A DNA stretch of 56,342 nt, the filler included, from Mitosporidium daphniae (taxonomy: Eukaryota), in NCBI RefSeq assembly GCF_000760515.2. It is 2 parts of 2 records of this genome, joined end to end, with 100 filler letters (N's around TTAATTAATTAA, not from the genome) between each part and the next. Parts side by side here need not be neighbours in the genome. Positions count along the whole stretch, not along the records: positions 1 to 28,248 come from NW_013546163.1; 1 more part is not named here. One strand, given 5' to 3'. Both the position numbers and the translations under genes were made by a program. Numbering within the stretch: position 1 is the first letter of the stretch; each line of letters begins with the position of its first letter. Positions 4,164-18,134 of this stretch are shown here, one piece after another. The notes beneath the pieces are model-generated. The model ran no database searches and was not told the DNA's origin. It saw only the letters and a program-made list of their open reading frames with translations.

Positions 4164-5870
4164 TTATTTATTAACATCGACCTGGTCTTTCTGGAGTATT
4201 GTCTCGATGTGACGTCCAGTTATCTGATGATACAACTCCTTGACATCTGCACACACAGACTCAAAATGACTCGATGAGTCGTAGGAGCGGGAGATGAAAA
4301 GATTTTGGGGGCAAGAGCTGTTCTTTGCCGGCACGCAATAATTGGAGATGAAGACAAAGCTACAATCAACTCAATGGTAGAGGCTTACCATTCCAGAACT
4401 GGACCAAGTAGTGCTAGCGCTGATGAGATTTCATCAATAGGGTCCAAGTGCTCCTGTTCCTGCAACGTGCTAATATAGGCAAGGAAAAAAGGAGACGGAG
4501 CCACACCATGTGCATGTGAAAGCACCGTTATATACATATCTAGCGATAACCCAAAGACATGGCCTACCTGATAGCCGAAGCAGCTCGCGCTGTGGGATGA
4601 TAATTTGTAACGAGTCAATACCCCCTGTGTGCGGCACTGGGCCAGGTAGGATACAAACGGCTCGAATGATTTTTGATTTTGTTTCCACAAATGAAGGAAA
4701 ATATGAAGGATCTCCGATCACTCCTCGCCTGCACTGAAACGTACCGATGGGAGAAGATAAATTTGCTGCTGGATGGCTGTTAGATGCTTCTTTTCCAGCA
4801 CCATTAGAATGTACTTCCACAGGAACGGTCCGCACCCCGGAAATAACCTGACCGTGCTCATTTGCTTGTTCAAGCAGCACAACGTCACCTACATTAAGCA
4901 TGTAGGTGCCTCCATGAACTGCGCCCAATCTGCGTGTGAGAATAACCCTCTCACCTTGCAAATGCCTGGGAAAGGTCGCCAAGACCGAAAAGTGGGTAAA
5001 TGAATGGAGATTTCCCAAATCTTGTTACCGAATTCATATAAAGAGCGATGGCATTGCATGTAGGAAGAGCCTCCCGTGTGAGATATCTATGCCATCAACG
5101 AACATCCTTACGAATCATCGCTTTGTAATGCTAGAGCGTGGCCAATAAAGTCCTGAGCGCTCCTAGCAAGCCCGTATTTTTCATAGAGGGCGGCCATCGA
5201 ATAAGTGGCTAGTTCTAAAAGTAAATGCAATGGTCAATAGCTGGAAAACATATAATAATTGGGCAACAACCAGAAAATGACATGCTCAGGTTGAAGAATA
5301 GGAAAATTGCCTACGAGAACATACTTTTTTTTTCTTCCTCTCCGTGCTCAGCAGAGGAGCTCCTCCGTATAAAGTCGAAAAACTTGTATGCTCGCCGCTT
5401 CTCGAACAATCCGAACAGGGGAGAGAGAACTGTTTCCATCTCCGTTGCAGGTACTTTGTATATGTGTCCATCACGATACACAAAGGCGCCATCGATTTGA
5501 CGAAACTCTAGGTATTTTGTCACCGTCGTCAAGGCTAGAATTTGTGCAAAATCGCCTGCTGCCATCAGAAGCTTGGGAACGGTGTCGATGTAATACTCGC
5601 GTGGAGGTCCAAGGAGGGCGCCCCCTTTTGCGGTGTACTTGGCAGGCAATTCGGCGTTCAACAATTTTTCATAAATCTAGAAAAGCATATAACGCAGTGT
5701 GCTACTTGGCCAATTGAGAGCGATGTACAGGCACCTCCGTAATATGAGTTGCGGTCAATATGGAGGATGCGATGGCCCTCCTTGGAAAGAAGGCTGCTTA
5801 TGATGCACTCTACCAATCCCGTTCCTAGTACGATATAGTCATATTGGTTCGTATCGCCATTCTGGGCCAT
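4164..5870 (-). CDS. GDI1: Rab GDP-dissociation inhibitor, multi-exon
   Basis: YDYIVLGTGLVECIISSLLS...HIDRNSYYGG; PKLLMAAG; RLGAVHGGTYMLN; IGDPSYF; SLQIIIPQ. Confidence 0.93.
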
Positions 5871-6022
5871 TAGCAACGTAAGTGTCAAACCATATGGAAG
5901 AATTGTAAAAAATTAAGGCAAAAAGTAAATTTTATTGGGCCGCAAATTCAATATAACCCGGTCTCCTCATATGACACGTGAGTCATGATACGCAGTGCGT
6001 CATTCATCTAGAAATAAGCAAG

Positions 6023-6097: not shown

Positions 6098-6253
6098 GTA
6101 CTCACCTTTTACAAATGTACATGCACGGCTGGCAGTTCCGGAGAAACTCAGCTGACAGGCTCAATTGATATTTTGTGAGCTGGCTAAAGCACTCTCAAAG
6201 GAGATTATGCGATATGGGAAACGGTCTATTTTGCAAAGTATGAGGATTGCCTA

Positions 6254-6328
6254 AGTCTCAGCAAAAATACAACATCATGGAAATGAATCAGACATATGCT
6301 TGTCTCTTATTTTTTTCGTCATCAACTT
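6254..6328 (-). ncRNA. snR74: Box C/D snoRNA, snR74/SNORD27-like (18S Am28)
   Basis: C TGATGA 6324-6319, D' CTGA 6291-6288, C' ATGATGT, D CTGA 6261-6258. 14-nt antisense to 18S 5' end CAUAUGCUUGUCUC; +5 position is A28. Confidence 0.9.
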
Positions 6329-6368
6329 ACTAAAAGTAAGAAAGCTAGAAAGAAGGGATAATAGTTGT

Positions 6369-6444
6369 TTTGTCAGACAGCATGAATGGATATTGTGTTA
6401 TTTCATCATCATGAAATATGGCTCGTCATCTTGTCATCATTCAA
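6369..6444 (-). ncRNA. snR75: Box C/D snoRNA, snR75-like (LSU Gm2288)
   Basis: C ATGATGA 6440-6434 and D CTGA 6376-6373. Antisense to LSU CUCGUCAUCU (6422-6431; +5 is G from a degenerate D' CATA). A second 12-nt match to neighbouring LSU GCAUGAAUGGAU lies at 6380-6391. Confidence 0.85.
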
Positions 6445-6543
6445 ATGTGAAGAAAGAAACTTACCTTTAATTAGTAGCACACTACATAAGAACTGCTTGT
6501 GATGATGGGTTCCCAAAAGCTAACCCCAGGCAATTCTAAAATA

Positions 6544-6611
6544 AGACTCGGCCAAAAAGTATCATCAAATGAAATATCAGCACCCAGTGCTCAATTGTTG
6601 TACATCATTGT
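6544..6611 (-). ncRNA. snR76: Box C/D snoRNA, snR76/SNORD88-like (LSU Cm2197)
   Basis: C ATGATGT 6608-6602, D' CTGA 6580-6577, C' TGATGA 6567-6562, probable D CCGA 6551-6548. Antisense to LSU CCCAGUGCUC (6583-6592); +5 is C. Confidence 0.8.
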
Positions 6612-6656
6612 CTTACCTATAAGTAAGATGATGATGATGAGAATGGAAAATGATCG

Positions 6657-6737
6657 TATGTCAGAATAGCCGCAAAATTTCATCACTAATCAGCCGGTAA
6701 TTCCAGCGTATAACGTATGATAGCAATCATCATTCAC
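6657..6737 (-). ncRNA. snR77: Box C/D snoRNA, snR77/SNORD65-like (18S Um578)
   Basis: C ATGATGA 6733-6727, D' CTGA 6693-6690, C' GTGATGA, D CTGA 6664-6661. 13-nt antisense to 18S CGGUAAUUCCAGC; +5 is the U of GGU. Confidence 0.9.
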
Positions 6738-6784
6738 ACGAGAAAACGGGTAGGATTCATACCTAAGCATAAGGAAATGCAATC

Positions 6785-6858
6785 AAAGTCAGAATATAAA
6801 TGAAAATCACTAGATTCAGATACTCTAGTCCGAATATATATAGTTGTGCATCACTCCT
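6785..6858 (-). ncRNA. snR78: Box C/D snoRNA, snR78/SNORD52-like (LSU Um2421)
   Basis: C GTGATGC 6854-6848, D' CTGA 6819-6816, D CTGA 6792-6789. Antisense to LSU ACUCUAGU(CCGA) at 6822-6833; +5 is the U of GACU. Confidence 0.8.
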
Positions 6859-7101
6859 TGAATGATTCCTACCTTTGGTTTGATAAAAAATTAGTAATCT
6901 ACAACTCTTACATTAAAAATACCAGGGTCCTCACACAATGCTTAATTTAAATTTAAAATTTTAAAGTTTGATTGGTTTGGGGATGTTCCATTTTGAAATT
7001 TTTTTGATATTGCAATGCCCCAATTGGGTTAGTTATCCTCGAATAATATGCCGTTTTACTTTATTTAACCTTTTCCTTTCTAGTCACGCATAATTAAAGA
7101 A

Positions 7102-8737
7102 ATGGGAATCAGCTCGATTATTGAAGGTCAGGTGTACATGAAGGAGAGAAGGAGCTTTTTCCGCGAAAACTGGAACAAAAAATATCTTGTTCTCAGAGAA
7201 TCCACATTGGGCATACATAAGGACAAGAGCGATACAAATGCTGTCTTTGTACTGCTCCTAAACGACGTTATCAATATCGATCGGCGGTCAAATAGGCCCT
7301 ATTGTTTAGAGTTGCAATTGGCCAGCTTAAAGCGATCTATGATGTTTGCATTTGATTCTGAAGAAGAAATGGTTAAATGGATGAACTCTCTAAAAAAGGT
7401 TTGGCGTTTGAAATATTATCCGTGATTTACGCTATGCTTTTTCGATTGCTTTTCTTACCATCTTAGTATTGTTCAAAGCTGGCGTGTGTCTCTGGTCCCA
7501 CTTCGTTCCGCCACAACTTGCACATTGGGTTTGATCCGAATACAGGATCGTTTACGGGGCTCCCAGAGTCATGGAAGAGAATGCTGAAGGCCTCGAGCAT
7601 TACAAAGGAGGATATCGAATCGAACCCAGATGTAGGTCCATTGCATATTTATATGCCTTTGTCTAGGTCGTCTTAGATGTGCTTGAATTTTATACAAAAG
7701 AGCAACACGCGGATGCGCAAGCAGGCGTAGAAAAAGAGGAAAAGCCAAAGCCATCATCTCCAGATCTTCATATGAAATCTCCAGGTTCCTCGCCTGAATT
7801 TGACTCGACCCACGATTCCATGGTAAAGGTGCCAGTTGCCGACGAGCTCCCATATATGGTTGCTTTAAGGCAATTGTGCACCCCCGGAAATCCCGCCGAA
7901 ATTTACACAAAATTAAAGAGGATTGGCCAGGGTGCTTCTGGAGAAGTTTTTGTCGGCCAAGAGAAAAAAACCGGCGCCCTTGTGGCAATTAAGCAAATGG
8001 ATATGAGGTATCAACAAAAACCCGCGTTGATTATAAACGAGATTTCGATCCTCAAAGCCTCACACCATCCAAATATTGTCAACTACTTGGACAGTTATCT
8101 GATGGGGTCCCAGCTTTGGCTTATCATTGAATATATGGAAGGAGGGGCCCTTACAGAGCTTCTCGAGTATCGGGGCAATTTGGATGAGCCAGATATTGCC
8201 ACAATCTCAAATGAGATTATAAAAGGACTTCATCATCTCCACTCGCGTTCGATCATACATCGAGATATCAAAAGCGACAACATCCTACTTGGTGCTGGAG
8301 GACAGGTGAAAATCTCTGATTTTGGATTTTGTGCAGAACTTTCTGCAGATCGAAGGAAAAGGGCCACCATGGTAGGCACGCCCTATTGGATGGCGCCTGA
8401 AATAATCAAGCAAAAGAGGTATGATGCAAGTGTGGATGTCTGGTCACTCGGTATTATGATGATTGAAATGATAGAAGGAGAGCCGCCCTATCTTTCGGAG
8501 GAACCACTAAAGGCGCTCTATCTGATTGCTACCAATGGGAGCCCTACTTTGAGGCACCCTGAGCGAATGTCTGCCCCGCTGATACAATTTGTGGATTCCT
8601 GTTTGAAAGTTAATGTGGCTACTAGAGCAAAAACCCAGGATCTTCTTCGTCATCCATTTCTCGTAAAAAATTCACGCGACTCCAAAACGCTGATCCCTCT
8701 TTTTAGCTCAATAATTAAAGAAGGCCTAATTTCATGA
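7102..8737 (+). CDS. CLA4: Cla4-type PAK kinase (PH + CRIB + kinase); introns about 7399-7466 and 7632-7666
   Basis: PH-like exon (WNKKYLVLRE...KWMNSL); CRIB VSGPTSFRHNLHIGFDPNTGSFTGLPESW; kinase IGQGASG, HRDIKSDN, DFG and MVGTPYWMAPE. Confidence 0.9.
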
Positions 8738-17196: not shown

Positions 17197-18134
17197 TTAA
17201 CCCAATTCTAGCTTTTCTGAAATTGGAGAATTTCTGGGATCAGACCCCTCTATGATGGGGGGAGATTGACGATGGAAGCGAGAGTAATATATGCATTGGG
17301 AAAGGAGGATTCCTTGACTTGTTCCGCTAATTAAATATGAGATCCACATCGAGTAGTCGCTATCCGGCCTCAATGCCAAGGAGACAATCAGAAGAAAGGT
17401 GCCTGGAGTTTGGAGCGCCATTGCAGGGATACTGAGAGCGCCTACCTCTTTTATTTTCCACGTTTTATAGATTTGAGGTGCACATTGGCAAGTTGTTAGA
17501 ATCAGCGAAATAAACCCAAGGATCCGGGCCCATCGCAAAAGCAGCGTTTCCGGAGATGCAGCGAATAGTTTTATGCAAATTGAGATTGTCGAAATGGAGG
17601 CAAGAAAGCACAAATTGATCATCAGTAAGAAGACAAGTTTACGCCACTCACGACCATTAATTCTGCATTCTCGCGGGAAATAAATAATGTAAAGCGCATA
17701 CCTGCAAGTGAGGTTAAAAATATCCACTTACAGAAAAAAAAACATTGAAACTTGAGTAAGAATCTGGGCAAAGCCAAGCATTCGTAACATACATGTGACG
17801 ATGTTCTGGGGAAAACAGAAACAAGCCTTTTTACCTCCTGGATACAGCAAATAAATAGGGACCATTGGATGATTATTGAAGTTACTAGCGTACTTGAGCT
17901 GCTACAAACTCCGAGCAGGAAGTAGTAGTGGGAATAGCCCGTAGATGAGCGTAGCTTTATTATTCTATAATGCTTTGTAGTGTGGAAGGAACAACTGCGT
18001 ACCTTCGGCGCATATGAACAAATAACTGCCAAAATCATAAATACGGATAAGATGTTGACCCAAAGGGAAGCAATCTCTCCGTCCCCACATTGAGGATTAT
18101 CTTCAAAGTTCAGATTGGAGGAGAACGTTCCCAT
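17197..18134 (-). CDS. PQ-loop repeat membrane transporter (paralogue), multi-exon
   Basis: CSYAPK|HYRIIKLRSSTGYS; CQCAPQIYKTWKIKEVGALSIPAMALQTPG. Confidence 0.82.

What the first reader, a model, noticed from the sequence alone, without database searches (positions are those of the whole stretch)
6611..6792. Back-to-back snoRNA introns with zero-nucleotide exons (AG|GT junctions)
Downstream of the snR78-like D box, the first AG is CTTAG, followed at once by GTATGA (junction 6763/6762). Downstream of the snR77-like D box, the first AG ends a pyrimidine-rich run as TATAG, followed at once by GTAAGA (6617/6616). No exon sequence can lie between these introns. The transcript would be processed by recursive or ratchet-type splicing purely to release snoRNAs. 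Other junctions show a possible gradient of exon erosion: about 71 nt (6535-6465, itself ending TACTAATTAAAG|GTAAGT) and 14 nt (6344-6331). Stepwise splicing of fungal snoRNA hosts may have precedent, so novelty is for this lineage.
Basis: partly seen in the sequence, partly recalled or inferred. Interest (0 to 1): 0.82.

Follow-up and report, generated by a model that had tools for sequence, protein, structure and literature searches.

The report
Exon-less snoRNA introns in basal microsporidian

Summary
On the minus strand, acceptor and donor motifs touch at 6763/6762 (CTTAG|GTATGA) and 6617/6616 (TATAG|GTAAGA). The DNA is Mitosporidium daphniae or near-identical (CCT-eta 100% identical). The locus is fungal snoRNA cluster I, snR78-77-76-75-74-73, in yeast order.

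A splice model from 32 hand-curated coding introns of the window ranks these sites 2nd and 4th of 1,434 candidates.

No RNA run showed any splice, so stepwise splicing is inferred. Zero and -1 exons in snoRNA hosts are published for ascomycetes (Luo 2013, Donovan 2016), and this scan met the zero-exon layout before on other DNA.

What is new is the lineage. Six members in order in a basal microsporidian imply the cluster is older than the Ascomycota origin proposed by Canzler 2018, and older than Luo's Rhizopus record. Verdict: real in sequence, known kind, new lineage.

The parts
6873..6945 (-). Putative first exon of the non-coding host, ending CCAAAG; its 5' end is not known
   Evidence: Sequence; donor GTAGGA follows at 6872 (score 6.6); start inferred from the AT-rich tract near 6960-6940
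6763..6872 (-). Predicted intron 1 (110 nt) with snR78-like C/D snoRNA at 6858-6787
   Evidence: Rfam snR78 32 bits, E 0.01, below gathering; guide targets a U in 2 of 3 LSU rRNAs; acceptor 11.8 with CTTAT at -8
6757..6774 (-). Junction 1: branch-like CTTAT, TAG|GTATGA, zero-nt exon
   Evidence: rank 2 of 1434; 1 of 3000 shuffles
6617..6762 (-). Predicted intron 2 (146 nt) with snR77-like snoRNA at 6739-6653
   Evidence: Rfam snoR77Y 39.5 bits, E 1e-5; 13-bp perfect pairing to SSU rRNA in L135 and L141
6611..6628 (-). Junction 2: branch-like CTTAC, TAG|GTAAGA, zero-nt exon
   Evidence: rank 4 of 1434; 0 of 3000 shuffles
6536..6616 (-). Predicted intron 3 (81 nt), almost filled by an snR76-like snoRNA: C box 6608, D' 6580, variant D box CCGA at 6551; the donor is the 5' arm of its terminal stem
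   Evidence: No snR76 Rfam hit; guide pairs 10 WC + 2 GU next to D' in 3 of 3 LSU rRNAs and targets a C; 9-pair terminal stem; acceptor 11.9
6465..6535 (-). Probable 71-nt exon; its end (CTAAT, AAG|GTAAGT) could serve as an alternative acceptor giving a third zero exon
   Evidence: Acceptor 7.7; 125 of 3000 shuffles reach the score; AAG acceptors in 2 of 32 coding introns
6330..6464 (-). Predicted intron 4 (135 nt) with double-guide snR75-like snoRNA at 6445-6371
   Evidence: Rfam snR75 39.7 bits, E 2e-6; two LSU guides
6325..6341 (-). Junction 4: CTTAC, TTTTA-G-TAAGT; one G ends intron 4 and starts intron 5 (exon size -1)
   Evidence: Rank 1 of 1434; 0 of 3000 shuffles
6251..6330 (-). Predicted intron 5 with snR74/U27-like snoRNA at 6327-6254; acceptor uncertain (6251 or 6226)
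   Evidence: Rfam SNORD27 47.5 bits, E 4.5e-7; guide targets A28 of L141 SSU; acceptors score 6.9 and 5.5
6106..6250 (-). Probable exon of up to 145 nt; no zero-exon signal
   Evidence: 2851 of 3000 shuffles reach the best composite score
6008..6105 (-). Predicted intron 6 (98 nt) with snR73/U35-like snoRNA at 6098-6025
   Evidence: Rfam SNORD35 19.5 bits, E 0.23; 12-13 WC pairs to 3 of 3 LSU rRNAs; acceptor 12.4
7103..8737 (+). Flanking divergent gene: PAK-type kinase (PH, PBD, kinase)
   Evidence: Pfam
4203..5871 (-). Flanking downstream gene: Rab GDI with six predicted introns

Best explanation
This is the fungal snoRNA cluster I of Mitosporidium daphniae (snR78, 77, 76, 75, 74 and 73 in that order), in which acceptor and donor motifs touch at two junctions and share a G at a third, so the host RNA is likely spliced stepwise, one snoRNA-bearing lariat at a time. 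Shown by sequence and calls: six C/D snoRNA-like units with rRNA-complementary guides; a donor upstream of each and a species-typical branch-plus-acceptor downstream (weak for intron 5); exon sizes 0, 0, 71 (or 0), -1, up to 145; no ORF over 19 aa in one assumed spliced host. Inferred: removing intron 1 would place exon 1 (ending AAG) against GTATGA, and removing intron 2 would place it against GTAAGA. At 6330 intron 4 would leave with the shared G, and the G at 6465 would rebuild the donor of intron 5. The reverse order is also possible if the acceptor is 6251, which is followed by G. Each lariat would be debranched and trimmed to a snoRNA guiding rRNA 2'-O-methylation. The exons carry no product and so could erode to nothing.
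For: Junctions rank 1, 2 and 4 of 1434 sites, with shuffle counts 0, 1 and 0 of 3000. GTATGA, GTAAGA and GTAAGT each occur as donors in coding introns, and a branch-like A at -7/-8 is the commonest class, 17 of 32. Only 1 of 32 coding acceptors is followed by a donor this strong, giving P about 0.0003 for 3 of 5 junctions, or 0.03 at the upper bound of that rate. Predicted targets C, G, U lie 91 and 133 nt apart in L132 and L135, exactly as Neurospora Cm2159, Gm2250 and Um2383 for snR76, snR75 and snR78. 5'-to-3' intermediates were seen in 42 ESTs of cluster III and by RT-PCR in other fungi (Luo 2013). Zero and -1 exons were seen by RNA-seq in Candida (Donovan 2016).
Against: No spliced read or contig: the only RNA run gave one unspliced 151-nt contig at 6133-5983 in 19.3 kb laid. 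No relative's cluster was recovered, so conservation of the junctions is untested. The splice model rests on 32 introns curated by eye without RNA. AG|GT alone is common (5 of 32 coding acceptors), and the rank-3 site is an ordinary coding acceptor. All Rfam hits are below gathering score, and whole-intron folds are no more stable than shuffles. The rRNAs used are from other eukaryotes. In introns 3 and 5 the C box lies only 8 nt from the donor and the terminal stem would cover it.
Confidence: 0.7

Rival explanations
1. Same introns, removed inside-out or in any order: intron 3 is cut first using the end of intron 2 as its 'exon', then intron 2, then intron 1. Separate lariats still form.
For: Each internal donor already has AG at -2/-1, as do 16 of 32 coding donors. 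Candida uses two orders at its -1 junction.
Against: Luo 2013 never detected removal of a downstream intron first. Stems over the donors of introns 3 and 5 would delay them.
Confidence: 0.12
2. One donor (6872) is joined directly to alternative acceptors (6617, 6536 or later), giving lariats with several snoRNAs that a nuclease then separates.
For: Luo 2013 raise this as an alternative. Exon skipping is reported in cluster I of Neurospora and Candida.
Against: It does not explain strong donors exactly at three acceptors. It may still occur as a minor path.
Confidence: 0.1
3. The splice signals are relics, and the snoRNAs are cut from an unspliced transcript, as in Saccharomyces.
For: The one RNA contig is unspliced across intron 6, though it may be precursor or DNA. 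Donors 3 and 5 may be conserved as stem arms.
Against: Acceptors at 6763, 6617, 6536, 6330 and 6008 score 11.8-12.9, the top of the training range 2.0-12.9. The genome is intron-rich.
Confidence: 0.04
4. Short real exons remain: 23 nt at junction 1 (donor 6739) and 14 nt at junction 4 (acceptor 6345).
For: Donor 4.0 and acceptor 7.8 both lie within the training range.
Against: The competing sites score 6.8 and 12.9. No such option exists at junction 2.
Confidence: 0.08

Closest known systems
Fungal snoRNA cluster I (snR78-77-76-75-74-73-72) intronic host; Luo et al. 2013, PMC3596301 (parts 1-4 of 6 read; figures and supplementary tables not visible)
   Same: Same members and order, one snoRNA per intron, non-coding host, 'complex introns' without exons (61 exon losses across three clusters).
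   Different: Luo sampled Ascomycota, three Basidiomycota and Rhizopus (cluster lacking snR76), and reported exon loss only in Ascomycota. Here a basal microsporidian keeps snR76, has no separate snR72 in the cluster, and has typical introns of only 29 nt.
Candida parapsilosis snR57-55-61 cluster II; Donovan et al. 2016, PMC5033589 (passages read)
   Same: Recursive splicing at exon size 0, and nested splicing where one G is shared and restored by a neighbouring exon.
   Different: Different cluster and lineage; in that paper the cluster I introns are separated by exons. Shown there by RNA-seq, only predicted here.
(D1,2)/(A2,3) stwintrons; PMC8469720 (passages read)
   Same: [quoted passage not shown]
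   Different: The passages read concern ascomycete pre-mRNA introns not assigned to RNA families; here both introns carry snoRNAs.
The fungal snoRNAome; Canzler et al. 2018, PMC5824354 (section 28 and passages read)
   Same: Describes the snR77-73 polycistron and its fixed order.
   Different: Places its origin at the root of Ascomycota, with the genes scattered at the root of Dikarya; this locus conflicts with that.
Recursive splice sites of long animal introns (recalled, no call)
   Same: AG|GT site that regenerates a donor.
   Different: Those subdivide very long introns of coding genes; here units are 80-150 nt and each lariat is the product.

Membership tests
Box C/D snoRNA cluster I | C and D boxes with terminal stems | tested here: met
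   Boxes in 6 of 6 units (unit 3 has variant C and D boxes); stems of 6, 7, 9, 4, 6 and 3 pairs
Box C/D snoRNA cluster I | Guides complementary to the conserved rRNA targets | tested here: met
   6 of 6 units pair 9-13 WC with eukaryotic rRNA loci; spacing 91 and 133 matches Neurospora. Mitosporidium rRNA was not available
Box C/D snoRNA cluster I | Order snR78-77-76-75-74-73(-72) on one strand | tested here: met
   First six in order; no seventh C/D unit seen down to 5950
Box C/D snoRNA cluster I | Rfam gathering score | tested here: not met
   0 hits at gathering; best 47.5 against 52 and 39.7 against 40. This reflects divergence; the assignment rests on guides and order
Box C/D snoRNA cluster I | Non-coding, single spliced transcript; snoRNAs expressed | tested here: inconclusive
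   Longest ORF 19 aa in one assumed exon set; one unspliced RNA contig only
Recursive splicing at zero-nt exons | Functional-looking acceptor directly followed by a donor | tested here: met
Recursive splicing at zero-nt exons | Splicing intermediates and separate lariats, 5' to 3' | not testable with these tools
   No raw RNA reads offered; no joints
Recursive splicing at zero-nt exons | Junction conserved in relatives | tested here: inconclusive
(D1,2) stwintron | AGT overlap and GGT start | tested here: met
   AGT at 6331-6329 and GGT at 6465-6463 (definition)
(D1,2) stwintron | Two-step excision intermediate | not testable with these tools
   No spliced RNA available

The most novel reading that the evidence does not exclude
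snoRNA cluster I was already assembled, in today's order, in the common ancestor of microsporidia and all other fungi. In Mitosporidium, whose spliceosome normally handles introns of about 29 nt, its first five introns have independently fused into one exon-free chain (0, 0, 0, -1) that is ratcheted off exon 1, with two introns so tight that the 5' splice site doubles as the snoRNA's terminal stem. The same ratchet may work in coding genes (CCT7, 31+27 nt).
Probability: 0.2. Interest if true: 0.55.

Novelty: new member of a known kind. Interest (0 to 1): 0.3.

Why it matters
The splicing design is not new. The value is evolutionary. A six-member cluster in yeast order in a basal microsporidian moves the cluster's origin to the base of Fungi (likely, about 0.85; a single genome, horizontal transfer not tested). 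Exon loss to 0 and -1 would then have arisen far outside Ascomycota. It also marks what canonical microsporidia lost: Belkorchia 2017 (passages) found no SSU-targeting snoRNA there, whereas two units here pair with SSU rRNA.

Tried and rejected
No whole genome is held, so other snoRNA clusters and this organism's rRNA could not be examined.

RNA: one metatranscriptome run holds a single unspliced 151-nt contig and nothing else in 19.3 kb. It shows no splicing and does not prove expression.

Relatives: the one metagenome scan used a 16-nt guide pattern and returned 119 loci, mostly chance matches. Twelve were scanned with Rfam; several are snR77-like genes of other eukaryotes, none with cluster I neighbours. 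Viral scans gave 0, 0 and 7 loci, none with a C box. A close relative exists (PEPCK 91%, CCT-eta 76%) but its DNA could not be fetched.

Whole-intron folding was uninformative (z -0.3 to 0.9). A zero exon at 6106/6105 is rejected (acceptor 0.1). An snR72-type second guide in unit 1 was not supported by the rRNAs used. A second Pfam batch was not obtained, so the CBS and NatA introns rest on reading frames alone.

Mitrovich 2010 is not held and is cited only through Luo, Donovan and Diao. Luo's supplementary tables could not be read and may list zero exons in cluster I. Searches for a prior description in Mitosporidium found none; the library omits most subscription papers.

Full report
Source and setting. 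The window is eukaryotic and gene-dense. The CCT-eta frame at 15247-13817 is 100% identical to a protein labelled Mitosporidium daphniae; the next hit is 76%. NCBI files the species under Microsporidia incertae sedis, and Whelan et al. [quoted passage not shown] The finding lies on the minus strand, in an AT-rich gap between a divergent PAK kinase gene and a Rab GDI gene.

The snoRNAs. No Rfam family reaches gathering score. At relaxed threshold the region gives snR78 (6858-6787), snoR77Y (6739-6653), snR75 (6445-6371), SNORD27 (6327-6254) and a weak SNORD35 (6098-6025). SNORD27 = snR74 and SNORD35 = snR73 are recalled equivalences. The third unit has no snR76 hit. I fetched eukaryotic rRNA present as contamination in prokaryotic assemblies (4 of 23 loci typed by Rfam; three LSU and two or three SSU stretches used). 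Every unit has a guide of 9-13 Watson-Crick pairs. By the fifth-base rule, units 3, 4 and 1 target C2251, G2342 and U2475 in L132 and C2531, G2622 and U2755 in L135. The spacings, 91 and 133, equal those of Neurospora snR76, snR75 and snR78 targets Cm2159, Gm2250 and Um2383 (Liu 2009, PMC2780460, table passage). L141 matches unit 3 but has mismatches for units 1 and 4. The order is therefore snR78-77-76-75-74-73, as in cluster I.

Splice signals of this genome. I curated 32 introns from coding genes by reading frames, with Pfam or tblastn support for most genes and no RNA support; several are less sure. Median length is 29 nt. Donors are GT, then mostly A, and G at +5. Acceptors are TAG 23, CAG 6, AAG 2 and GAG 1. 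A branch-like A lies at -7 or -8 in 17 of 32. Two introns pass over an AG 20 nt or more inside, so the first AG is not a safe guide.

The junctions. With a matrix trained on those introns only, the acceptors at 6763, 6617, 6536, 6330 and 6008 score 11.8-12.9 (training range 2.0-12.9), and the donors at 6872, 6762, 6616, 6464 and 6330 score 6.5-7.4. Among 1434 AG|GT or shared-G sites on both strands of the window, 6330 ranks first, 6763 second and 6617 fourth. Third is 17702, a training acceptor whose exon happens to start with a donor-like word; two other assemblies lack one base beside that intron, so its frame is not certain. Spacer shuffles reached the observed score in 1, 0, 125, 0 and 2851 of 3000 for junctions 1-5. 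Against this, the plain motif YAGGTAWGW is not enriched window-wide (3 against 1.67), and 5 of 32 coding acceptors are followed by GT, 1 of them by a strong donor. Junction 2 leaves no room for an exon. Junction 1 has a weaker alternative donor at 6739. Junction 4 is better read as a shared G than as a 14-nt exon. Junction 3 most likely keeps a 71-nt exon, with a possible AAG acceptor at its end.

Compactness. The donor lies 8 nt before the C box in introns 3 and 5, and there it forms the 5' arm of the terminal stem (9 and 6 pairs). Liu 2009 report mostly 41-60 nt for that distance in Neurospora. These two snoRNAs would need almost no 5' trimming (inference).

RNA evidence. Six runs were offered. 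Five, of unrecorded kind and unspliced, span the cluster without change; four are from one study and one may be the source. The one RNA run holds a single unspliced 151-nt contig over intron 6 and nothing else in 19.3 kb. No splice is shown.

Mechanism. Most likely each intron is removed as its own lariat, 5' to 3', with exon 1 supplying the AG context for each newly exposed donor, and with the G at 6465 restoring the donor of intron 5. The order is borrowed from other fungi. Inside-out removal, direct skipping and short residual exons are the rivals.

Comparison. Luo 2013 counted 61 exon losses in three clusters in Ascomycota and found only 5'-first products among 42 ESTs. Donovan 2016 saw zero and -1 exons spliced in Candida cluster II. 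Diao 2014 (PMC4138321, passages) note juxtaposed snR57/snR55 introns in fission yeast. Stwintron work defines the shared-G form. Eight earlier notes of this scan describe zero-exon snoRNA introns in other genomes, one at the same snR78/snR77 junction; they are unchecked, and I formed my reading before seeing them. The design is therefore known.

What is added. Canzler 2018 put the cluster's origin at the root of Ascomycota, while Luo had it in Rhizopus without snR76. A copy with six members in order in Mitosporidium points to an origin at the base of Fungi. Four searches found no description of it in this organism. Verdict: real in sequence, unproven in RNA, new member of a known kind, interest 0.3.

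Noticed in passing
window 15436-15379 (-), CCT7: The 58-nt stretch that must be removed to keep the conserved spacing (110 of 120 homologues) has an internal TAG|GTATCA that splits it into 31 + 27 nt, both of typical intron size. It could be a zero-exon twin intron in a coding gene (composite 14.5, rank 19; 1 of 5 long introns). The public protein P0121 is two residues short here.
   Followed up: partly
window 5324-5215 (-), Rab GDI: A 110-nt predicted intron, long for this genome, with no Rfam hit at E<1; it might host an unrecognised small RNA.
   Followed up: partly
window 6922-6899 (-): A possible extra 24-nt intron (GTATTT...GTAG, acceptor 9.0) in the host's first exon.
   Followed up: no
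window, 32 coding introns: Introns are tiny (median 29 nt, minimum 23) with the branch-like A 7-8 nt from the end and occasional AAG acceptors.
   Followed up: partly
window 6261-6251 (-): If 6251 is the acceptor of intron 5, the A of the D box sits at the branch position (-8).
   Followed up: no
window 17734, 19149, 22033: Small deletions in other assemblies relative to the window; those at 17734 and 19149 are single bases and may be homopolymer errors or strain differences.
   Followed up: no
L120-L142: Eukaryotic rDNA contigs sit inside prokaryotic genome records, i.e. contamination.
   Followed up: partly
window 36989-36941 (-): Weak SNORD48 match (E 0.44) inside the long helicase frame; probably chance.
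   Followed up: no
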